This document shows, piece by piece, positions 2,720-35,509 of a stretch of 38,652 nucleotides of DNA (the stretch's first letter is position 1; each line of letters begins with the position of its first letter). The stretch comes from a virus. Taxonomy: Duplodnaviria > Heunggongvirae > Uroviricota > Caudoviricetes. The stretch lies in the IMG/VR virus record IMGVR_UViG_2671180727_000010; one strand, 5' to 3'. A model generated the notes under the pieces. It ran no database searches. It saw only the letters and a list, made by a program, of their open reading frames with translations, and was not told the DNA's origin. A program made the translations under genes and the position numbers.

Positions 2720-3106
2720 TCATCCTCTGCCAAATATTTGCATCAGTTGCTCTTTGGCGTCAGGGTCTGCCTTATCCTGGCTTGGATCGTAGACTTTATC
2801 TGTTACGACTGGTCTTCCAATCCTGAGTTGCAAACCCTCCATGAACGCCTTCACAGCCTCGCCATCCGCCTGGGACGCACGAGCGACTTGTAAGTTGCGG
2901 ACATCCTCTTCCGCACGCAGACGGTCTATATTGCGACTGAGCATCCAGAACATCGTGAGAGGAACGTTCAGTAGCTCTAATGGCGACACGGCGTAGTGAG
3001 CAACTACACGACTGAAATAGAATCCGAGATCTATTGAGACGGTCCTTGTCCCGGATTCATCGCGGGAAATTACTTTGCCCCTTCGCCAGCCGCTTTTTCG
3101 TTTTCT
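2720..3106 (-). CDS. Tail assembly chaperone frameshift extension (T part of a G/GT pair)
   Basis: Frame -1 relative to the G ORF is open from 3106 to the stop at 2720, overlapping the 3' end of G; an A-run (GAAAAAG, ~3093-3099) lies in the overlap; classic position between major tail and tape measure genes. Confidence 0.45.
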   Translation of the reverse strand, partial: RKRKSGWRRGKVISRDESGTRTVSIDLGFYFSRVVAHYAVSPLELLNVPLTMFWMLSRNIDRLRAEEDVRNLQVARASQADGEAVKAFMEGLQLRIGRPVVTDKVYDPSQDKADPDAKEQLMQIFGRG

Positions 3107-3387
3107 TCATCAATCACTTCCATAGCGAAGGTGAAGATCTGCTGGAGTTGCGGAACAGTCAGTTTTTCAAGAACTTCGTCAGGTACTGAAGGGATAACCT
3201 TACGAACCAGATCTGCATAAGCTGTCACTTGCTCAACAGGAGACATATTCATGAGATCTTTGCCTTCCATCTGCTTGATGGAAACGAACAGACCTACCGT
3301 CATTTCAACGATGGGATATTCCTGACCGCCAAATTTGATGCTTTTCTTCGGAGGCAGAATGGAATCTAGATCGAGTAATTTGGTCAT
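3070..3387 (-). CDS. Tail assembly chaperone (gpG-like)
   Basis: 105-aa ORF between major tail protein and tape measure genes, with an overlapping -1 frame ORF downstream. Confidence 0.5.
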   Translation of the reverse strand: MTKLLDLDSILPPKKSIKFGGQEYPIVEMTVGLFVSIKQMEGKDLMNMSPVEQVTAYADLVRKVIPSVPDEVLEKLTVPQLQQIFTFAMEVIDEENEKAAGEGAK

Positions 3388-27902: not shown

Positions 27903-29936
27903 TTACTTAACCTGGTGGCCTGGTTTAGCACCAGCATCCGGGCTTAACAGGAAGATATCTTTCCCGCCGGGGCCAGCAGCCATCACCATGCCTTCGGAGA
28001 TACCGAAGCGCATTTTACGTGGTGCCAGGTTAGCCACCATAATGGTGTGACGACCAATCAGTGCCTGTGGATCTGGATAAGCGGAACGGATGCCTGAGAA
28101 GACATTACGCTTTTCACCACCGAGATCCAGCGTCAGACGAAGCAGTTTGTCAGAACCTTCTACAAACTCTGCGTTTTCAATCAGCGCCACGCGCAGGTCA
28201 ACTTTGGCGAAGTCGTCAAAGGTGATAGTTTCCTGAATCGGGTCGTCAGCCAGTGGGCCAGTTACCGGTGCGGCTGTGGCTTTCACTTCTTCTTTGGATG
28301 CTTCCACCAGTGCTTCAACCTGCTTCATATCGATGCGGTTATACAGTGCCTTGAACGGATTCACTTTATGGCCCAGCAGCGGTTGCTGGATACCATCCCA
28401 GGTCAGTTCTGTATTCAGGAATGCTTCTGCACGTTCAGTCAGTTTCGGCAGTACCGGCTTCAGGTACGTCATCAGCACGCGGAACAGGTTAATGCCCATA
28501 GAGCAAATCGCCTGCAGATCGGCATCGCGTCCTTCCTGCTTCGCCACCACCCACGGAGCCTGTTCATCGACATAGCGGTTAGCCAGGTCAGCCAATGCCA
28601 TGATTTCACGGATAGCTTTACCAAATTCGCGGCTTTCCCATGCTTCGCCAATCACTTCAGCGGCATCAGTAAAGGTTTTGTACAGTTGCGGGTCAGCCAG
28701 TTCGCTTGCCAGCACGCCGTCAAAACGCTTGTTGATAAAGCCTGCATTACGGGAGGCCAGGTTAACCACTTTGTTCACGATATCGGCATTCACGCGCTGA
28801 ACGAAATCCTCCAGGTTGAGATCGATATCATCAATGCGCGAAGAGAGTTTCGCAGTGTAGTAGTAACGCAGGCTGTCGGCGTCAAAATGATTCAGCCAGG
28901 TGCTGGCTTTAATAAAGGTGCCGCGAGACTTGGACATCTTCGCGCCGTTCACCGTCACATAGCCGTGAACAAACAGGTTGGTCGGCTTGCGGAAGTTGCT
29001 GCCTTCCAGCATGGCAGGCCAGAACAGGCTGTGGAAGTAAACAATATCTTTACCGATGAAGTGGTACAGCTCGGCGGTGGAGTCTTTCTTCCAGTATTCA
29101 TCGAAGCTGGTGGTATCGCCGCGCTTGTCGCACAGATTCTTGAAGGAACCCATGTAGCCAATCGGCGCGTCCAGCCAGACGTAGAAATATTTGCCCGGCG
29201 CGTTCGGAATTTCAAAACCGAAGTAAGGCGCATCTCGGGAGATATCCCACTGTTGCAGGCCGGATTCAAACCATTCCTGCATTTTGTTCGCCACCTGCTC
29301 CTGCAACGCGCCGCTGCGGGTCCATGCCTGCAACATTTCGCTGAAAGAAGGCAGATCAAAGAAGAAGTGTTCGGAATCACGCATTACCGGGGTAGCGCCA
29401 GAAACCACCGATTTCGGCTCGATCAATTCAGTCGGGCTATATGTTGCGCCGCAGACTTCACAGTTATCGCCGTATTGATCTGGCGCTTTACATTTCGGGC
29501 AGGTGCCTTTTACAAAACGATCCGGCAGGAACATGCCTTTTTCCGGGTCGTACAACTGAGAGATAGTGCGGTTTTTAATAAAACCGTTCTCTTTCAGGCG
29601 AGTATAGATAAGCTCAGACAACTGACGGTTCTCTTCGCTGTGCGTCGAGTGATAGTTGTCATAGCTGATGTTAAAGCCTGCGAAATCAGTCTGGTGTTCC
29701 TGACTCATTTCGCCAATCATCTTCTCCGGTGTGATACCAAGCTGCTGTGCTTTCAGCATGATCGGCGTACCGTGGGCATCGTCGGCACAGATGAAATTAA
29801 CCTCGTGGCCGCGCATTCGCTGGTAACGAACCCAGACATCAGCCTGGATGTGCTCCAGCATATGGCCGAGGTGGATTGAGCCGTTAGCGTACGGCAGCGC
29901 GCACGTCACCAGAATTTTCTTCGCGACTTGGGTCAT
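27903..29936 (-). CDS. metG: Methionine--tRNA ligase
   Basis: 677 aa from [28 protein letters not shown] (HIGH motif) with KMSKS; matches my recollection of Escherichia MetG almost throughout; the track ORF starts 43 codons upstream at an out-of-context ATG. Confidence 0.97.
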
Positions 29937-30093
29937 AGTAGGCATTACTTCTTTGTAGTGAAAAGGGGCTTGATAGTAACAAAATGGCCTTATGTCTGCC
30001 ATGTGATAACAGCATTTCTCATAAATGATTAAATGTCGTAGCTGGAGTACACTACAAGGCGACAATTGCGCAAATTAAAATAAAGGAGACGGG

Positions 30094-31194
30094 ATGAGCG
30101 AGTCCAAATCGCCGGATGCCCTGAGAGCAATGGTAGCCGGTACGCTGGCTAATTTTCAGCACCCAACCCTGAAACACAACCTGACTACGCTTAAAGCGTT
30201 ACACCATGTTGCGTTGATGGATGACACACTGCATGTCGAACTAATCATGCCTTTCGTGTGGAATAAGCCTTTTGAAGACCTGAAAGAGCAATGTAGTGGT
30301 GATCTGCTCCGTATCACTGGCGCAAAGGCTATTGACTGGAAGCTGTCGTACAACATTGCCACGCTTAAGCGCGTCAAAAACCAACCAGGCATTAATGGCG
30401 TTAAGAACATTATCGCCGTCAGCTCAGGCAAGGGCGGCGTGGGTAAATCCTCCACGGCGGTAAACCTGGCACTGGCGTTGGCTGCTGAAGGTGCGAAAGT
30501 TGGTATTTTGGATGCCGATATCTATGGTCCATCAATTCCAACCATGCTGGGCGCGGAAAACCAACGTCCAACCTCACCTGACGGTACTCACATGGCACCT
30601 ATCATGTCTCATGGCCTGGCAACCAACTCTATTGGTTATCTGGTCACCGACGACAATGCAATGGTGTGGCGTGGACCGATGGCCAGCAAGGCGCTGATGC
30701 AGATGTTGCAGGAAACTCTATGGCCTGATCTGGACTATCTCGTTCTCGATATGCCGCCGGGCACTGGTGATATTCAGTTGACGCTGGCGCAGAACATTCC
30801 TGTAACTGGTGCGGTTGTGGTAACTACGCCGCAAGACATCGCGCTGATCGATGCGAAGAAAGGCATTGTGATGTTCGAAAAAGTCGAAGTGCCGGTACTG
30901 GGTATCGTCGAAAACATGAGTGTGCATATTTGCAGTAACTGCGGTCATCACGAGCCAATTTTTGGCACCGGTGGCGCACAGAAACTGGCCGAGAAATACA
31001 ACACGCAGTTGTTAGGCCAAATGCCACTTCATATCTCTCTTCGTGAAGATCTGGATAACGGAACACCAACCGTTATTAGTCGTCCAGATAGCGAATTTAC
31101 GGCTATTTATCGTGACCTCGCAGATCGCGTTGCCGCCCAAATGTATTGGCAAGGTGAAGTAATACCTGGCGAAATCGCATTCCGCGCAGTGTGA
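30094..31194 (+). CDS. apbC: Fe-S cluster carrier ATPase ApbC/Mrp
   Basis: P-loop SGKGGVGKSSTAVNLA; CxxC motif (CSNCGHH); divergent from metG as in Escherichia; the true start may differ from the track start by a few codons. Confidence 0.93.
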   Translation: MSESKSPDALRAMVAGTLANFQHPTLKHNLTTLKALHHVALMDDTLHVELIMPFVWNKPFEDLKEQCSGDLLRITGAKAIDWKLSYNIATLKRVKNQPGINGVKNIIAVSSGKGGVGKSSTAVNLALALAAEGAKVGILDADIYGPSIPTMLGAENQRPTSPDGTHMAPIMSHGLATNSIGYLVTDDNAMVWRGPMASKALMQMLQETLWPDLDYLVLDMPPGTGDIQLTLAQNIPVTGAVVVTTPQDIALIDAKKGIVMFEKVEVPVLGIVENMSVHICSNCGHHEPIFGTGGAQKLAEKYNTQLLGQMPLHISLREDLDNGTPTVISRPDSEFTAIYRDLADRVAAQMYWQGEVIPGEIAFRAV

Positions 31195-31220
31195 TAAAAA
31201 GGCGGTGCATTGCACCGCCT
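31195..31220. terminator. Hairpin between apbC and the convergent UmuD'-like gene (likely terminator for the minus-strand gene)
   Basis: GGCGGTGCA-t-TGCACCGCC; on the minus strand it is followed by TTTTTAT. Confidence 0.5.
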
Positions 31221-31231
31221 AATCAGTTCTC

Positions 31232-31621
31232 CTACATCACGGGACAATCATCAAACTCGCCACTTCTTGCGTCGTTGATAATGTGAGTGATCACACCAAA
31301 CACGGCATTGCTGCCCGTGCATCCATCGTCATCCTTTGGCAATGCTTCCTTCTTACCGGTTCTTAAATCCTCCAGATGCTGACGTGGGTACTTCCGGTAT
31401 CTTTTTACGCGATATTCCCCATCCAGAGCGCATACAAGCAGAGAACCATCAACCGGGGTAAGTGAGGAATCGACCACCAGCAATGCACCCTGTAATATTC
31501 CCTCACGATGATGACTATCAGCTGCCCTCATGAAGTAGGTCGCTGAAGGATGTCTAATTATCTGCTGATCAAGAGAAATACGGCTCTCAGCATAATCCGC
31601 CGCAGGAGAAGGGAAGCCCAT
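31232..31621 (-). CDS. UmuD'-like S24 peptidase-fold protein, genetically pre-truncated (begins at the residue equivalent to the UmuD cleavage product)
   Basis: MGFPSPAADYAESRISLDQQIIRHPSATYF... aligns with UmuD from its Cys24-Gly25 cleavage site onward (my recollection of UmuD); the GDSM Ser motif is replaced by ADSHH; RBS AAGAGG; LexA box immediately upstream; no umuC-like gene adjacent. Confidence 0.75.
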   Translation of the reverse strand: MGFPSPAADYAESRISLDQQIIRHPSATYFMRAADSHHREGILQGALLVVDSSLTPVDGSLLVCALDGEYRVKRYRKYPRQHLEDLRTGKKEALPKDDDGCTGSNAVFGVITHIINDARSGEFDDCPVM

Positions 31622-31637
31622 AATACTCGCCTCTTAA

Positions 31638-31657
31638 TACTGTATATACATACAGTA
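31638..31657. promoter_or_regulatory. LexA (SOS) box TACTGTATATACATACAGTA
   Basis: 19 of 20 match to the E. coli consensus TACTGTATATATATACAGTA (CTGT-N8-ACAG); lies between the promoter and the RBS of the UmuD'-like gene. Confidence 0.8.
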
Positions 31658-31952
31658 TATGTTGAAGCTATATATTTTTGAACTCTATCTCTTAAAAAAG
31701 ATGTTAATAAGATGCTAACTATTGAAAGGCATAAATATATACAATTCCAACAAACGTTATTTTTAACAAATTTTTTCTCTCTGTTGACTTTTGCGAAAGC
31801 CTTGTCTGGCCTAAATTGCGCGGAAGCTACTTTTTCCTTCCTGAGTTATCCACAGAGTTATGCACTTGCATGCATAACCTATACACACTATCTTAATTCG
31901 CAAGACACTGATGTTGCGGTATTGAAGGTTCATTGGGTTAAAAATAGACATT

Positions 31953-31985
31953 AAAAAGCCCAGTTGACTAGGCTGGGCTTTTTAA
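31953..31985. terminator. Bidirectional-looking terminator hairpin
   Basis: AAAAAGCCCAG-ttgacta-CTGGGCTTTTT (A-tract before, T-tract after). Confidence 0.5.
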
Positions 31986-32017
31986 AAGGAAACAGAGTTT
32001 GCGGCTCTGTTCCTGAG

Positions 32018-32036
32018 CCATAAGTATCTGGCGACT
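32018..32036. repeat. 19-bp direct repeat CC(A/G)TAAGTATCTGGCGACT, copy 1
   Basis: 18 of 19 identical to the copy at 32191-32209; contains the GTAAGTAT half-site of the palindromic operator. Confidence 0.6.
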
Positions 32037-32190
32037 GAATTAAGATTAACCGAATGTACTGGATTCATCAAGAAACGTTGAGTGGTCATACCAGGTAATA
32101 ATGACCATTTACTAAACATCGTTGTTCTCAAAGAAGATTTAAGTCCAGGTTTTTGGTGACTCTAAAACCTTACCTTAACTCGAAATCGTG

Positions 32191-32209
32191 CCGTAAGTAT
32201 CTGGCGACT
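32191..32209. repeat. 19-bp direct repeat, copy 2
   Basis: See copy 1; the intervening ~154 bp contain the inverted repeat TGGTCAT...ATGACCA. Confidence 0.6.
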
Positions 32210-32283
32210 ACAGATATTGCAACTGCAAAGGCAAGCCCAAAGGTATTTGCAGCTAGGCGCGATAAAACTAAGTGAGGCCTGTT

Positions 32284-32367
32284 ATGGTTAACTTACTGTT
32301 CAAAATCGTGCCGCCGATGTTCGCGATTATCAAAGCGATCATTGAGTACGTAAACCAGCGTCCATAA
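32284..32367 (+). CDS. Possible 27-aa hydrophobic peptide (MVNLLFKIVPPMFAIIKAIIEYVNQRP)
   Basis: GTGAGG 6 nt upstream of the ATG; hairpin terminator directly downstream; below the ORF-track cut-off; hand-translated. Confidence 0.35.
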   Translation: MVNLLFKIVPPMFAIIKAIIEYVNQRP

Positions 32368-32380
32368 CGCTAGTTGCTAC

Positions 32381-32405
32381 AGGCCCCATCAAGAGCATGG
32401 GGCCT
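32381..32405 (+). terminator. Hairpin after the small ORF
   Basis: AGGCCCCAT-caagagc-ATGGGGCCT followed by CTTTATCG (weak U-tract). Confidence 0.45.
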
Positions 32406-32422
32406 CTTTATCGTACTATTGC

Positions 32423-33049
32423 TTATTTTTTACGGACTGAGTTGTTCACTGCTCTGGCAATTTTCTCCCGCAATTGCTGCGTTCCGTGGTACTGAACCGC
32501 AATATCCCGCAACTCGTTCACCAGTTCTCTAATCTGGTGATCTTTAAGCTCATTATTTGGGTGATGGGCAACAACTCTGGTTAATTCACCCTTGTCTTTT
32601 GCTCTTACGTATGCAGCTCTTGTGCATTCGACCCATGTATTACCGCCTACATTAACTTCGTAGATTAGGCTGGACTTATCTGTCAATTCGGAACAAATAC
32701 GGGCCGTGGTCTGGCAACTAGAGCATTCGCAGTTATCGCGGAAACCGTGATCTACCGGTCGAGAAAGAGGTTTAACTTTTTCATCCAACTTCATCACAGC
32801 ATCGTGATAAGCGTTCCAGCCGTCATCTTTACCAAGTTGATAAATCTCTGAAGGCTCCATGTAGTCTATATCGCAACCTTCTTCATCCGATCTATCTGGT
32901 CGCTTCCCTGGTAATCGCTCATAAAAACGATTTCTGTCTCGACGTTCGGCTCTCAGTGCTAACGCAAGAAGTTGCTCAAGCGAGGTATTTGCACCAGCAA
33001 TAATTTCATTGAGAATATCTTCTGTGAGATCTTTCGCTACCGTGCTCAT
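32423..33049 (-). CDS. Hypothetical phage early-region protein (208 aa)
   Basis: ORF with stop/start overlap to the upstream gene; part of a co-directional coupled gene array. Confidence 0.55.
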   Translation of the reverse strand: MSTVAKDLTEDILNEIIAGANTSLEQLLALALRAERRDRNRFYERLPGKRPDRSDEEGCDIDYMEPSEIYQLGKDDGWNAYHDAVMKLDEKVKPLSRPVDHGFRDNCECSSCQTTARICSELTDKSSLIYEVNVGGNTWVECTRAAYVRAKDKGELTRVVAHHPNNELKDHQIRELVNELRDIAVQYHGTQQLREKIARAVNNSVRKK

Positions 33050-33429
33050 TTATCTCTCTCAGTATGTTGCGATGGCGTAAATTTGACGACATCAAATATT
33101 TTGGATGGCATCAACTTTATCCGCGAGCTTAGTTCGACTCTTCTCTGTAATGCGGTTAATAATGTTTTCGTTCTGACGCCTTCGTGTATCCTCATCCCTG
33201 GCACAAGAACTACATCGCAGGGGAGATGCTCAGGTGACAAATCATTTTGGGCATCGCTAATCAGTCGTGTAATCTCTCTTTCAAGCCGACCGCCTAGCTC
33301 TGTTTTAGTGCAATGTTCTGACCAATCGCCAGCCTCAAGCAGCGCGAGAATGCTTAAAATATCGTCCAATAGATCAGTGGTATTATCGACTTCCTTCTGA
33401 AACTCACCGGCTACTGATTTATGCATCAT
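33046..33429 (-). CDS. Hypothetical phage early-region protein (127 aa)
   Basis: Four-base overlaps with both neighbours. Confidence 0.5.
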   Translation of the reverse strand: MMHKSVAGEFQKEVDNTTDLLDDILSILALLEAGDWSEHCTKTELGGRLEREITRLISDAQNDLSPEHLPCDVVLVPGMRIHEGVRTKTLLTALQRRVELSSRIKLMPSKIFDVVKFTPSQHTERDK

Positions 33430-34079
33430 TCGTCATCCTCATCCGAGTCATCCTCATTACAGGATGAGAGTAGTGGGTTAGTCATTCGCCCTACTTGAGT
33501 GGCGTAGCCACGCCGACAGAGATTGCGCAGCACACTGTATATTTCGAACATCTCGGTTCGTTCATCGCCAACATCAAGCTCAGATGCTATAGCGTGGCAT
33601 TCAGTCGCGAGAGCCGATATTTTCTGAAATAACTCTGCATTATTCACTGTTCGACTCCTGCGGCGTTCTGGTAGTGGCATCCAGTGTGTGACATTGCTAA
33701 TCAGACCATATTCATTAGTTTGAGGATGGTTGCCGTTATCGTCTCCGTATTTAAGACTCTCCATAAAGCCATAATGCCTATCACCATTAACACTCACAAA
33801 GCCATAATAAGCAGGTATAACGCCGATCTCACACGTAACCAGTAAAGGAAAACTAGTTCTCCAATTTAGCTCGCCAATTACAGGCATTCGCTCACTACAG
33901 CTTATCCAACCATCCTTAGATGCGGCTGTATTGGCATAGGCCTTACGGTGCTTCTGTAGCTCTGCTGCAATCGCTCTCACGACTTCAACTGGTGCCCTTG
34001 CAGCAAACTCAATGTTGGTGATCAGCTCATTAAGATATTTCTCGCTTGGGTAGCATTTCTTATTGTTAACGGTGGTCAT
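33426..34079 (-). CDS. DUF551-like phage protein
   Basis: Contains THWMPLPE, which I recall as the hallmark of the DUF551 family; acidic C-terminal tail; unverified. Confidence 0.45.
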   Translation of the reverse strand: MTTVNNKKCYPSEKYLNELITNIEFAARAPVEVVRAIAAELQKHRKAYANTAASKDGWISCSERMPVIGELNWRTSFPLLVTCEIGVIPAYYGFVSVNGDRHYGFMESLKYGDDNGNHPQTNEYGLISNVTHWMPLPERRRSRTVNNAELFQKISALATECHAIASELDVGDERTEMFEIYSVLRNLCRRGYATQVGRMTNPLLSSCNEDDSDEDDE

Positions 34080-34264
34080 TAGGCAGCTCTCTCAACAACA
34101 AGCAATTCGTCGTAGTCATAATCAGTTTCGGAACCATCCGTACCGAACAGAGTCACTTTGTCATTTTCCATCCAAAAAGATTTAACCGCACATTGTTGAC
34201 CTTTAGATGTTATGAGCACATCACCAGGGATTACGTCTTCAGCGCGAACCTCTAGTGTTCTCAT
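34079..34264 (-). CDS. Small hypothetical protein (61 aa)
   Basis: Coupled ORF. Confidence 0.4.
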   Translation of the reverse strand: MRTLEVRAEDVIPGDVLITSKGQQCAVKSFWMENDKVTLFGTDGSETDYDYDELLVVERAA

Positions 34265-34791
34265 CGTGCTGCCCCCTCTTTGGTGAAAATGCCTGCTGCA
34301 ATGCTGTTTATGATGCTGTCAGTGCATGGAGTAGAAAGCTGGGCATCTCCAGCAATTTTCATGACCTCAACATCCGCATATCGAATACCGAGGTGTATCA
34401 GACCGGCTATACCTGACTTAAGTCGAACATTTTCCATAAACAGATCTTTTTCCCGCTGTTTAGCGGCTTCCAACTCCATCGACAATTTTTCCAACTGCTC
34501 TTTATGCTTCTTGTATTCCTGATACGCGTGCCAAGACTGACCTTTGCGCACACTATCAGCGATATCAGCAACCTGCTCTGGTGTTAGCGTGGTCAGTGGC
34601 TGTGATGGAAAAATCATCACTTGCCCGGCATCCCAATCAAAACCCGCCTGAATTGACTGAACCTCAACTGATGGTGTTGAACCGATGCGACCAGGCGAAT
34701 GAACAACGATCGTTACATCCATATCGCGACGATGGCTGTGGTTGTTGGACAAAATACGATTCACCAACTCAGAAAATTTGGATAATTTCAT
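34261..34791 (-). CDS. Hypothetical phage early protein (176 aa)
   Basis: ATG at 34791 overlaps the upstream stop as ATGA ([14 protein letters not shown]...); the track ORF extends to 34920 through the upstream gene. Confidence 0.5.
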
Positions 34792-35111
34792 GCTGATCTC
34801 TCTTTCTCTCCCCGGATAATTCTGTTGCACACATCCACACACTCGTCGCAGATGAAAACGGCGTCCCCAGCAATTAACTTTTTGACGGCGTACTGGGATT
34901 TGTTGCAGAAGCTGCAACAAAGTGTTCGCCTGACTGATAAGGATGGAGCGCCAGATGTCAGCCGCTCCATATCGTTCTTGCGACGCAATATCACACGGCT
35001 GAACTCAACCAGTTTCTCCGGGGATATCTCCTCCTCCGTAGCGAGCGTCTCTAGTCGTTCGAGTATGTTGAAGGCTTTTTCTTGGGTAATAGCAGAGTGC
35101 GATGTGGTCAT
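34788..35111 (-). CDS. Phage protein with a C-terminal ClpX-type C4 zinc-binding domain
   Basis: [34 protein letters not shown] closely matches the ClpX N-terminal zinc-binding domain as I recall it ([34 protein letters not shown]). Confidence 0.65.
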
Positions 35112-35509
35112 TTTCTTTCACCTTCAATGTTCGTGGCGCTGGCAAGATTGTCCTTGCGAAGAAGAGCGGCTATGCGCTTACTTCCATCCGAGATAACGCC
35201 CTCGTAATACTCACGCTGCTCGTTGAGTTTTGATTTTGCCAACTCCAGTTGTTTTGTTAGTTCCGCAATACGGCAAACATCGTTGATACGCGTTTCCTCT
35301 AATGCGTTGATCTCATCCAGTAGTGCCAGCACGGTTTCTGGTCCGGCCAGAAATTTGAAGGCGTTGAGGGCATCAATATCAACACCGCTATCTTTAAGTT
35401 CCTGTTCGCATATCAGATCATCATCAACTGGCAACATTAACAGGCGTTCCATTGCCGGAATTGCACGCTCTGCCGCCTCACGCAGTGCCTGATAGTCAAT
35501 CTTGCTCAC
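35108..35509 (-). CDS. Hypothetical phage early protein (133 aa), ea22-type context
   Basis: Coupled ORF; helical, charged. Confidence 0.45.

What the first reader, a model, noticed from the sequence alone, without database searches (positions are those of the whole stretch)
32018..32405. 19-bp direct repeats flanking a ~150-bp segment, next to a 27-codon hydrophobic ORF with its own RBS and terminator
The repeats CC(A/G)TAAGTATCTGGCGACT at 32018 and 32191 bracket a short segment containing an inverted repeat. Immediately downstream is a 27-aa hydrophobic peptide gene (32284-32367) with a plausible Shine-Dalgarno sequence and a terminator hairpin. This resembles a small-membrane-peptide or type I toxin locus, with the repeats as possible regulatory or antisense elements, or the footprint of a small inserted element.
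Basis: seen in the sequence. Interest (0 to 1): 0.4.

Follow-up and report, generated by a model that had tools for sequence, protein, structure and literature searches.

The report
Unannotated type I toxin–antitoxin cassette
A 0.45-kb unannotated cassette on this phage-plasmid encodes a 27-residue membrane peptide and, on the other strand, a small RNA whose first 20 bases can pair with the peptide's message; this is the layout of an RNA-controlled (type I) toxin–antitoxin pair, from a family that none of the databases searched here names.

Summary
There are 20-nt direct repeats at 32017-32036 (R1) and 32190-32209 (R2), a hairpin between them, and a 27-codon ORF (32284-32367) with a Shine-Dalgarno sequence and a terminator.

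Twenty non-redundant relatives from Escherichia, Enterobacter, Citrobacter and Klebsiella plasmids and prophages share only window 31945-32386, so this is a self-contained cassette.

- **Repeats.** R1 and R2 co-vary between loci: 11 of 25 positions change in concert, and 0 of 500 shuffles reach this. Every core difference between them is A>G or C>T. These give G·U pairs only if an RNA made from the minus strand over R1 pairs with plus-strand R2.
- **Predicted sRNA.** A conserved minus-strand promoter (TTGAAG-17-TAAGCT) puts the start exactly at the R1 end. A hairpin and a terminator follow, giving an RNA of about 86 nt.
- **ORF.** It is intact in 20 of 20 loci. Variable sites by codon position are 17/7/24, and pN/pS is 0.32. 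Half the loci carry a second, paralogous 28-codon ORF.

The layout matches dinQ/agrB and dqlB/agrB. The peptide fails the DinQ and DqlB models, and the RNA is below Rfam's AgrB threshold.

Verdict: a probable new type I toxin–antitoxin family. Expression and toxicity are untested.

The parts
31945..32412 (.). The whole cassette: sRNA gene plus peptide mRNA gene, bounded by two terminators
   Evidence: Window 31945-32386 is the only part of 29000-35500 that matches 13 divergent loci, which have unrelated flanks. The alignments start and end at the two terminators.
31951..32036 (-). Predicted antisense sRNA of about 86 nt (the antitoxin candidate): 5'-AGUCGCCAGAUACUUAUGGC..., then a hairpin, then a terminator
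   Evidence: The fold has z = -5.6 against shuffles. The best Rfam match, below threshold, is AgrB: full length, 27.6 bits, E 0.005-0.02. The sequence is conserved in all complete relatives.
31951..31985 (-). Intrinsic terminator of the sRNA. In this window it is a perfect 13-bp palindrome and so could act on both strands.
   Evidence: (I4). In relatives the stem keeps compensatory changes (AU:9/GC:6 and GC:12/AU:2) and G·U pairs that exist only on the minus strand. The U-run is also on the minus strand.
31988..32013 (-). Internal hairpin of the sRNA (GGAACAGAG / CUCUGUUUCC)
   Evidence: The inner stem alternates between AGAG/CTCT and GGAG/CTCC among relatives (sequences).
32017..32036 (-). 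R1: the single-stranded 5' pairing region (seed) of the sRNA.
32043..32071 (-). sRNA promoter: -35 TTGATG (32071-32066), 17-nt spacer, -10 TAATCT (32048-32043). The predicted start is at 32036.
   Evidence: In 15 relatives the hexamers are kept as TTGAAG and TAAGCT at a fixed 17-nt spacing, while the spacer and the stretch after the -10 vary. AGT follows 6-7 nt after the -10.
32147..32170 (+). SL1: hairpin near the 5' end of the peptide mRNA, with the conserved loop UUGGUGA
   Evidence: The stem changes as AGGTTTT/AAAACCT, GAGCTG/CAGTTC, GGGCTC/GAGTCT and AGGTTC/GAACCT among relatives.
32185..32209 (+). In most relatives the match extends over AUCGUGCY (E1, 32185-32192).
   Evidence: In the 25-nt register, 94.7% of cells are paired, 11 of 25 pairs change on both sides, and 0 of 500 shuffles reach this. 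Pairing is always better for antisense-R1 with sense-R2 than for the reverse arrangement.
32197..32217 (+). R2 hairpin: GUAUCUG, loop GCGACUA, CAGAUAU. It presents the start of the target in a loop.
   Evidence: RNAalifold pairs 57-62 with 74-79; four of the six pairs have changes on both sides. Examples are CACTG/CAGTG, GTTAAC/GTTAAC and GTGTCTG/CAGACAC.
32223..32263 (+). SL3 (CUGCAAAGGCAAGCCCAAAGGUAUUUGCAG, 32223-32252) and element E2 (GGCGCGAU, 32256-32263). E2 can close a multibranch helix with E1.
   Evidence: This is the most conserved stretch of the family, nearly invariant across genera. The G·U pairs are plus-strand specific. Its role is unexplained.
32274..32367 (+). Shine-Dalgarno GAGG (32274-32277) and the 27-codon ORF (32284-32367), MVNLLFKIVPPMFAIIKAIIEYVNQRP. 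This is the toxin candidate.
   Evidence: The ORF is intact in 20 of 20 non-redundant loci. Variable sites by codon position are 17/7/24 of 25 codons, and pN/pS is 0.32. The peptide forms an amphipathic helix with a polar stripe at 140-240 degrees, like TisB and DqlB.
32381..32412 (+). Intrinsic terminator of the peptide mRNA
   Evidence: The equivalent GGGCC...GGCCC hairpin followed by a T-run is present in all relatives.

Best explanation
Window 31945-32412 is a self-contained type I toxin–antitoxin-like cassette. Its layout is that of dinQ/agrB, dqlB/agrB, tisB/istR-1 and zorO/orzO.

**What each strand makes.** The plus strand makes an mRNA of about 270 nt: a structured 5' UTR, the 27-codon ORF and a terminator. 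The ORF encodes an amphipathic membrane peptide. The minus strand makes an sRNA of about 86 nt from its own conserved promoter, diverging from the mRNA gene and not overlapping it.

**How the sRNA acts.** The first 20 nt of the sRNA (25 nt in most relatives) are complementary to a stem-loop about 75 nt upstream of the start codon. Pairing keeps the peptide from being made. The most likely route is cleavage and decay of the 20-25-bp duplex by RNase III, or blocking of ribosome loading in the UTR.

**Likely role.** On a phage-plasmid or plasmid, the probable function is post-segregational killing, which stabilises the element.

**Shown here:**
- the sequence parts and their conservation;
- the concerted change of the two pairing partners;
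- the strand-specific G·U pattern;
- the conserved promoter and terminator of the sRNA;
- purifying selection on the ORF;
- the cassette boundaries.

**Inferred:**
- that both RNAs are made;
- that the peptide is toxic;
- that the sRNA neutralises it, and by what route.
For: 1. **Real, conserved repeats.** R1 and R2 are genuine repeats and are present in all 18 complete non-redundant relatives, spaced 152-179 nt apart.
2. **Concerted change.** For the duplex of antisense-R1 with sense-R2, 94.7% of cells are paired and 11 of 25 pairs change on both sides. The covariation score is 0.295 against 0.118 for shuffles (0 of 500 reach it), and slid registers pair at only 30-37%.
3. **Direction of pairing.** Every R1-to-R2 difference in the 20-nt core is A>G or C>T. 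These give G·U pairs only in this orientation. All 18 loci have fewer mismatches than in the reverse arrangement, and 7 have none over 25 nt.
4. **sRNA promoter.** A conserved minus-strand promoter, TTGAAG-17-TAAGCT, puts the start on the last base of R1.
5. **sRNA fold.** The fold has z = -5.6. The terminator shows compensatory changes and minus-strand-only G·U pairs.
6. **Resemblance to AgrB.** The best Rfam match is a full-length alignment to AgrB at 27.6 bits. The experimentally validated pOXA-48 agrB scores only 18.8 bits on the same model.
7. **Coding evidence.** The ORF is intact in 20 of 20 loci, variable sites by codon position are 17/7/24, and pN/pS is 0.32. A paralogous 28-codon ORF is present in 10 of 20 loci, with pN/pS 0.31.
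8. **Peptide character.** It is amphipathic, with its polar residues on one face, like TisB and DqlB.
9. **Cassette boundaries.** Only 31945-32386 is shared with 13 loci from unrelated contexts.
10. **Same layout in studied systems.** The K-12 dinQ/agrB locus and the pOXA-48 dqlB/agrB locus show the same direct-repeat layout on the toxin's strand (PMC3567139, PMC5066626, PMC12365149, PMC8594479).
Against: - There are no expression data, so both transcripts are predictions.
- No convincing sigma-70 promoter was found for the peptide mRNA, in the window or at a conserved position in relatives.
- Folding models show no change in accessibility of the Shine-Dalgarno and start codon when the sRNA site is blocked. 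How pairing 75 nt upstream would stop translation is therefore open.
- The peptide matches no toxin model in NCBIfam, Pfam or PHROGs. It is less hydrophobic than the known toxins (GRAVY 0.86 against 1.4-1.8) and has a Pro-Pro in mid-helix.
- Concerted change of two nearby direct repeats could in principle arise by gene conversion. That would not explain the one-way G·U pattern.
Confidence: 0.7

Rival explanations
1. The RNA control is as described, but the peptide is not a toxin. It would be a small membrane protein, a lysogeny-expressed accessory gene (a 'moron'), that modulates a host or phage membrane function, with its level tuned by the sRNA.
For: - The peptide matches no toxin family.
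- It is less hydrophobic than DinQ, TisB and ZorO, and carries a conserved Pro-Pro.
- Many sRNA-controlled small membrane proteins are not toxic (general knowledge).
- The Cyrano phage-plasmid already has several type II toxin–antitoxin systems (PMC9928086).
Against: - The dedicated, divergently encoded sRNA with 20-25 nt of perfect pairing, and movement as a two-gene cassette across plasmids and prophages, are typical of addiction modules.
- The duplication of the peptide ORF in half the loci is more neutral evidence.
- Known relatives by layout are toxic (PMC3567139, PMC12365149).
Confidence: 0.2
2. R1 and R2 are two operator sites for a DNA-binding regulator that controls divergent promoters. 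They co-vary because the protein's specificity changes.
For: - Two identical sites lie 173 bp apart and flank a divergent promoter region.
- Some relatives have 10-11-bp tandem repeats between them.
Against: - No regulator gene travels with the cassette.
- Only R2 has dyad symmetry; R1 lacks the second arm.
- The R1/R2 differences are all of the kind that keeps RNA pairing in one direction, which DNA binding does not predict.
- R1 sits exactly at a predicted transcription start.
Confidence: 0.04
3. The repeats are target-site duplications or terminal repeats left by a small inserted element.
For: Direct repeats bracket a ~150-bp segment that contains an inverted repeat.
Against: - The repeats differ between loci yet stay matched within each locus, while the surrounding cassette is homologous.
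- No related genome has the flanks without the inner segment. A sister plasmid instead lacks the whole cassette and has another in its place.
- The inner segment carries the promoters and the 5' hairpin of the module.
Confidence: 0.01

Closest known systems
dinQ / agrB (agrA) of E. coli K-12 (type I toxin–antitoxin; Rfam RF02891, NCBIfam NF041472)
   Same: - A 27-residue single-helix peptide with an SD and a terminator.
- An 82-86-nt sRNA encoded upstream, divergently and without overlap.
- The sRNA's 5' end pairs with the toxin's 5' UTR, so the pairing region appears as a direct repeat on the toxin's strand.
- AgrB is the best Rfam match to the predicted sRNA. The match includes the hairpin loop AGAGCCnCnAACUC.
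   Different: - No nucleotide similarity to the dinQ locus.
- The peptide fails the DinQ model.
- The sRNA scores 27.6 bits against a threshold of 40.
- There is no LexA box at the toxin gene, whereas dinQ is SOS-regulated (PMC3567139).
- The four-element switch described for the dinQ UTR (PMC5066626) was not found.
- There is one sRNA copy, not two.
dqlB / agrB of pOXA-48 and other plasmids (DinQ-like; NCBIfam NF041473; PMC12365149, PMC5066626)
   Same: - Carried on plasmids.
- Same order of parts: terminator, R1, divergent promoters, R2 in the UTR, SD, small ORF, terminator.
- Similar repeat spacing: 188 nt there, 173 nt here.
- The peptide N-termini are alike (MINLLI against MVNLLF).
- The covariance model built from this family finds the pOXA-48 agrB at 26 bits.
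- dqlB/agrB is shown to be an addiction module.
   Different: - The peptide fails the DqlB model, which scores the true DqlB at 73.5 bits.
- The model match rests mostly on the terminator, and the internal hairpin is absent there.
- Pairing is 35 nt there and 20-25 nt here.
- The hosts here are mainly phage-plasmids and prophages rather than conjugative IncL/M, IncI and IncX plasmids.
tisB/istR-1, zorO/orzO, shoB/ohsC (type I systems with the antisense RNA 5' of the mRNA and not overlapping it; PMC8594479)
   Same: - Same general architecture.
- A long structured 5' UTR.
- Short pairing far upstream of the start codon.
- An amphipathic peptide with a polar stripe, as in TisB.
- OrzO-P gives weak sub-threshold matches to the sRNA region.
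   Different: - No sequence-level membership for either the RNA or the peptide.
- No LexA control (tisB has it).
- Those systems are chromosomal; this one is a mobile cassette.
hok/sok-type plasmid and prophage addiction modules
   Same: The likely role (stabilising a plasmid or prophage), and a small membrane peptide under antisense RNA control.
   Different: - In hok/sok the antisense RNA overlaps the mRNA leader and a mok reading frame, and the peptide is about 50 residues.
- None of that is seen here, and no sok or hok Rfam match was found in the window.

Membership tests
Type I toxin–antitoxin systems (general) | A small (<60 aa) hydrophobic or amphipathic peptide ORF with its own ribosome-binding site | tested here: met
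   A 27-codon ORF with GAGG 6 nt upstream. It is conserved as coding sequence in 20 of 20 loci and encodes an amphipathic helix.
Type I toxin–antitoxin systems (general) | An antisense RNA gene whose product can pair with the toxin mRNA | tested here: met
   Predicted from sequence only. The supporting features are a conserved promoter, a 20-25-nt seed, a hairpin and a terminator, plus pairing that co-varies with the target.
Type I toxin–antitoxin systems (general) | The peptide is toxic when over-produced, and the RNA prevents this | not testable with these tools
   This needs induction and rescue experiments.
DinQ/AgrB family, including Dql | The peptide matches the DinQ or DqlB family models (NF041472, NF041473) | tested here: not met
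   No match at E up to 10 for the window peptide, a relative's ORF-B, or ORF-A. The positive controls DinQ (54 bits) and DqlB (73.5 bits) both pass.
DinQ/AgrB family, including Dql | The sRNA reaches the Rfam AgrB (RF02891) gathering score | tested here: not met
   27.6 bits against a threshold of 40. The accepted pOXA-48 agrB scores only 18.8 bits, so the model is narrow and the test is weak.
DinQ/AgrB family, including Dql | The 5' UTR resembles the dinQ 5' UTR in sequence. This was the criterion used to define the dql genes (PMC5066626). | tested here: not met
   blastn-short of the module against the K-12 dinQ locus found only 8-mers at E above 4.
DinQ/AgrB family, including Dql | The sRNA gene lies 5' of the toxin gene, is divergent, does not overlap it, and pairs through its 5' end with the UTR | tested here: met
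   PMC8594479.
DinQ/AgrB (dinQ proper) and TisB/IstR-1 | A LexA box at the toxin promoter (SOS control) | tested here: not met
   The only LexA box in the window is at 31638-31657, in front of the humD-like gene. There is no CTG-N10-CAG in 31900-32450.
Hok/Sok | A ~50-aa Hok peptide, an overlapping mok frame, and a sok RNA overlapping the leader | tested here: not met
   No sok or hok Rfam match in the window. The peptide is 27 aa, and the RNAs do not overlap.
Small insertion element footprint (target-site duplication) | Related genomes have an empty site with a single repeat copy, and the repeats reflect the target rather than a function | tested here: not met
   No empty site was found. The repeats co-vary in homologous cassettes, and the unit that is gained or lost is the whole cassette.

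The most novel reading that the evidence does not exclude
This is a previously undescribed type I toxin–antitoxin family with its own peptide family (ORF-B, and in half the loci a tandem paralogue, ORF-A) and its own sRNA family. It moves as a 0.45-0.57-kb cassette among SSU5-like phage-plasmids, lambdoid prophages and conjugative plasmids of Enterobacteriaceae. It may be a deep branch of the DinQ/Dql–AgrB superfamily that current models cannot reach. It would act as an addiction or exclusion module for phage-plasmids.
Probability: 0.55. Interest if true: 0.5.

Novelty: new member of a known kind. Interest (0 to 1): 0.45.

Why it matters
Type I toxin–antitoxin pairs are routinely missed by annotation. 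This cassette has no annotated feature in the RefSeq, GenBank and PLSDB records inspected here. About 2% of complete E. coli genomes carry the region, as do 84 PLSDB plasmids.

If it is a working addiction module, it would help explain how SSU5-like phage-plasmids such as pLF82/Cyrano of the Crohn's-associated strain LF82 are maintained. It would also add a new peptide and sRNA pair to the small set of trans-acting, 5'-encoded type I systems.

The natural variation in the 20-25-nt pairing region gives ready-made specificity variants. Klebsiella, Citrobacter and prophage versions carry quite different seeds, which could be used to test cross-talk between antitoxin RNAs.

The kind of system is well known, so the value lies in a new family and better annotation, not in a new principle.

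Tried and rejected
1. **Conformational switch.** In the window, E2 (GGCGCGAU, 32256-32263) can pair either with E1 (32185-32192) or with an identical copy inside the ORF (32300-32313, repeat D5). The minimum-energy fold uses the ORF copy and encloses the start site. I tested whether sRNA binding would force this closed form. The ORF-internal partner is not conserved in position in relatives. Blocking the sRNA site does not change the predicted accessibility of the SD and AUG in any of 15 loci. I dropped this as a general mechanism.

2. **Promoter of the peptide mRNA.** The consensus scan finds none on the plus strand. A right-anchored comparison gives only weak, inconsistent candidates, such as TTTAGA-17-AATTTT in some relatives and nothing in the window. 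This is unresolved.

3. **Membership in DinQ/DqlB/AgrB.** The models do not accept the peptide or the sRNA. A covariance model of this family finds the pOXA-48 agrB weakly (26 bits, mostly the terminator) and finds no K-12 agrA or agrB. Homology is possible but not shown.

4. **Replacement of P1's phd/doc.** The P1 map shows phd/doc on the other side of humD. The homology to P1 ends at 31870. Rejected.

5. **Protein database search.** The tool needs at least 40 aa. A concatenate of the three peptides found a single 58-aa hypothetical protein. This is not informative beyond showing that the family is essentially unannotated.

6. **Full-text search for the peptide sequences.** No paper was found.

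7. **SOS control.** There is no LexA box in the module.

8. **Whole-molecule RNAduplex of the sRNA against the mRNA.** This was uninformative, because shuffled sRNAs reach similar energies.

Full report
**Where the window comes from.** Region 31650-32450 is 100% identical to Escherichia phage Cyrano (OV696614) and to about 110-kb E. coli plasmids such as pRM9131-1. Cyrano is the SSU5-like phage-plasmid pLF82 of the adherent-invasive strain LF82 (PMC9928086). The finding lies in an 800-bp gap with no annotated feature. On one side is a humD/umuD-like S24 peptidase gene (31232-31621, minus strand) with a LexA box. On the other is a leftward operon of ea-type genes that ends at 32423. The same 800 bp also occurs in a P22-like prophage next to tRNA-Thr in an E. 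coli chromosome.

**Checking the observation.**
- The repeats are 20 nt long (32017-32036, R1; 32190-32209, R2), match at 19 of 20 positions, and are spaced 173 nt apart.
- The 16-nt core occurs only at these two places in the window even with three mismatches allowed. The chance expectation is 0.13.
- Between the repeats lies an inverted repeat whose core stem is at 32147-32170.
- Downstream are GAGG, the 27-codon ORF at 32284-32367, and a 9-bp terminator hairpin at 32381-32405.

**Relatives.** A distant search of plasmids found weaker matches (75-82% identity) in Enterobacter, Citrobacter and Klebsiella plasmids. Aligning three of them showed that the whole arrangement is conserved from a hairpin at 31951-31985 to the terminator after the ORF. 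Pattern scans of genome, viral and metagenome collections added more loci. After clustering there were 20 non-redundant members. When 6.5 kb of the window is compared with 13 of these loci, only 31945-32386 matches. The unit is therefore a cassette of about 0.45 kb bounded by two terminators, and it moves between otherwise unrelated phage-plasmids, prophages and a conjugative IncFIB plasmid. A sister plasmid of the Cyrano type lacks the cassette. In its place it carries a different ~500-bp segment with an unrelated 45-codon hydrophobic ORF.

**The repeats behave as two partners of an RNA duplex.**
- R1 and R2 are present in all 18 complete members.
- Their sequence differs between loci, but the two copies change together. 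The core is TAAGTATCTGGCGAC here, AATGTATCTGGCGAC in most relatives, TAAAACACTGGCGAC in one prophage, TTGTTAACCGGCGAC in Klebsiella, and ...GGCAGC or ...GGCTAC in others.
- Written as a duplex between the reverse complement of R1 and R2, 94.7% of cells pair and 11 of 25 pairs have changes on both sides. No shuffle out of 500 reaches the observed values, and slid registers pair at 30-37%.
- The differences within a locus all run one way. In the 20-nt core, R1 has A where R2 has G, or C where R2 has T. This gives U·G or G·U pairs if the RNA is the antisense of R1 and the target is sense R2. The opposite arrangement would give A·C mismatches. All 18 loci have fewer mismatches in the first arrangement, and seven have none over 25 nt.

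Gene conversion or a shared DNA-binding protein would not produce this asymmetry.

**The predicted sRNA.** On the minus strand, directly upstream of R1, the relatives keep TTGAAG, a 17-nt spacer and TAAGCT (TTGATG and TAATCT in the window, 32071-32043). The spacer and the following bases vary. The A of AGTCGCC, the last base of R1, lies 7 nt after the -10. The RNA would run from 32036 to about 31951. It has a 20-nt 5' pairing region, a hairpin (31988-32013) and a terminator.
- It folds far better than shuffles, with z = -5.6.
- In relatives the terminator stem has compensatory changes and several G·U pairs that exist only on the minus strand. The U-run is also on that strand.
- Rfam has no match at gathering scores. 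At relaxed thresholds the best match is a full-length alignment to AgrB, the antitoxin RNA of dinQ (27.6 bits, threshold 40, E 0.005-0.02). It includes a nearly identical hairpin loop.
- The experimentally validated agrB of pOXA-48 scores only 18.8 bits on that model.

**The peptide mRNA.** The plus-strand region 32147-32263 has conserved structure:
- a 5' hairpin whose stem co-varies and whose loop UUGGUGA is constant;
- a helix between AUCGUGCC (E1) and GGCGCGAU (E2);
- a hairpin that contains R2 and co-varies with it;
- a nearly invariant hairpin, CUGCAAAGG...UUUGCAG.

The G·U pairs are specific to the plus strand. The start of the sRNA is complementary to the loop and the 5' arm of the R2 hairpin, the usual way antisense RNAs meet their targets.

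The ORF is intact in all 20 members. Of 25 codons, 24 vary at the third position, 7 at the second and 17 at the first, and pN/pS is 0.32. Ten members have a second, upstream ORF of 28 codons (MQMLLLFLKLAHPV.VIIMTLLGYWKDR). It resembles the first in pattern and has pN/pS 0.31. The window has the single-ORF form.

The peptide is an amphipathic helix with its polar residues on one face (140-240 degrees), as in TisB and DqlB. It is less hydrophobic than the known toxins and has a conserved Pro-Pro.

**Comparison with known systems.** T1TAdb groups ShoB/OhsC, TisB/IstR-1, Zor/Orz and DinQ/AgrB as the families in which the antisense RNA lies 5' of the mRNA without overlapping it (PMC8594479). This is the arrangement found here. 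In both the K-12 dinQ locus and the pOXA-48 dqlB locus, the pairing region shows up as a direct repeat on the toxin's strand. One copy is in the sRNA gene and one is in the 5' UTR. In pOXA-48 the spacing is 188 nt. DinQ is a toxic 27-residue inner-membrane peptide (PMC3567139). DqlB/agrB was shown in 2025 to be a plasmid addiction module whose repression depends on base pairing (PMC12365149).

Membership of that family is not supported.
- The NCBIfam DinQ and DqlB models accept their own proteins but not these peptides.
- Pfam and PHROGs have nothing.
- There is no nucleotide similarity to the dinQ locus.
- There is no LexA box.
- A covariance model of the new sRNA family finds the pOXA-48 agrB only weakly and finds no K-12 agrA or agrB.

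A distant common origin cannot be excluded. The shared features are the layout, the AgrB-like hairpin loop and the N-terminus MxNLL.

**Mechanism, and what remains open.** The most economical reading is that the sRNA pairs with the UTR and prevents peptide synthesis. By analogy with AgrB/dinQ and IstR-1/tisB (PMC5066626, PMC3567139), this would work through RNase III cleavage of the duplex or interference with ribosome loading. I tested a structural-switch idea suggested by a third copy of AAAUCGUGCCG inside the ORF and found no general support for it. I could not locate a convincing promoter for the mRNA. I have no explanation for the extreme conservation of the CUGCAAAGG hairpin. Neither expression nor toxicity has been measured.

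**Distribution and novelty.**
- The 800-bp region is at least 80% covered in 113 of 5,426 complete E. coli genomes.
- The module itself is at least 80% covered in 84 PLSDB plasmids, most of them ~105-120-kb non-mobilizable plasmids, and more divergent copies occur in Citrobacter, Klebsiella, Enterobacter and Kosakonia.
- No annotation covers it in the RefSeq, GenBank and PLSDB records inspected.
- A search of 5.8 billion protein clusters found one hypothetical protein.
- A full-text search for the peptide sequences found nothing.

I judge it a new family of a well-known kind of system.

Noticed in passing
window 27903-31194: The phage-plasmid carries host-like housekeeping genes: metG (methionyl-tRNA synthetase, minus strand) and apbC/mrp (plus strand). 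They are divergently arranged as on the E. coli chromosome, and are annotated the same way in Cyrano and pRM9131-1.
   Followed up: partly
window 31638-31657: A near-perfect LexA box, TACTGTATATACATACAGTA, lies in front of the humD/umuD-like S24 peptidase gene (31232-31621, minus strand). It is the only LexA box in the window. It corresponds to the LexA site of lxr/humD in phage P1.
   Followed up: yes
window 31712-31954: The stretch 31750-31870 resembles the P1/P7 upfN-upfO region and the E. coli DNA upstream of nrdA (ypaB). It has two DnaA boxes (TTATCCACA at 31846-31854, TTATGCACT at 31858-31866). An 80-codon ORF over it (31712-31954, plus strand) matches phrog_28987 over its full length (E 6e-58). 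The ORF ends at the terminator that it shares with the predicted sRNA.
   Followed up: partly
L123 (NZ_OZ501614.1) 2720-3220: In a sister phage-plasmid the cassette is replaced by an unrelated ~500-bp segment. That segment has a 45-codon hydrophobic ORF (MNAFFQFLSAFLDAPVISQILAIILIIVLILLLRSVKNGIMHWLT) with an SD, and an inverted repeat (GCTCACGTTAACG / CGTCAACGTGAGC). There is no Pfam or NCBIfam match. The slot may be a hotspot for small-toxin cassettes.
   Followed up: partly
relatives L074, L034, L023 (between the R1 and SL1 equivalents): Two or three tandem 10-11-bp units (GAACGGTTTAG) sit between the divergent sRNA and mRNA genes in several prophage copies. The window has an unrelated inverted repeat there instead (GGTCAT...ATGACC, 32084-32106). 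These could be regulator sites. Their meaning is unknown.
   Followed up: no
window 32180-32193 and 32300-32313: A third repeat, TCGAAATCGTGCCG / TCAAAATCGTGCCG, has one copy just before R2 and one inside the ORF (codons 6-10). Both are complementary to GGCGCGAU at 32256-32263. The ORF copy is not conserved in position in relatives.
   Followed up: yes
window 32223-32263: The hairpin CUGCAAAGGCAAGCCCAAAGGUAUUUGCAG and the following AGGCGCGA are more conserved across genera than the coding sequence itself, including the loop. No explanation was found; a protein or ribosome binding site is possible.
   Followed up: partly
L043 13309-13453: One related viral contig that carries the cassette also contains the SraC/RyeA-SdsR/RyeB sRNA pair (Rfam, 178 and 116 bits). 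It is therefore a chromosomal prophage region bordering that locus.
   Followed up: no
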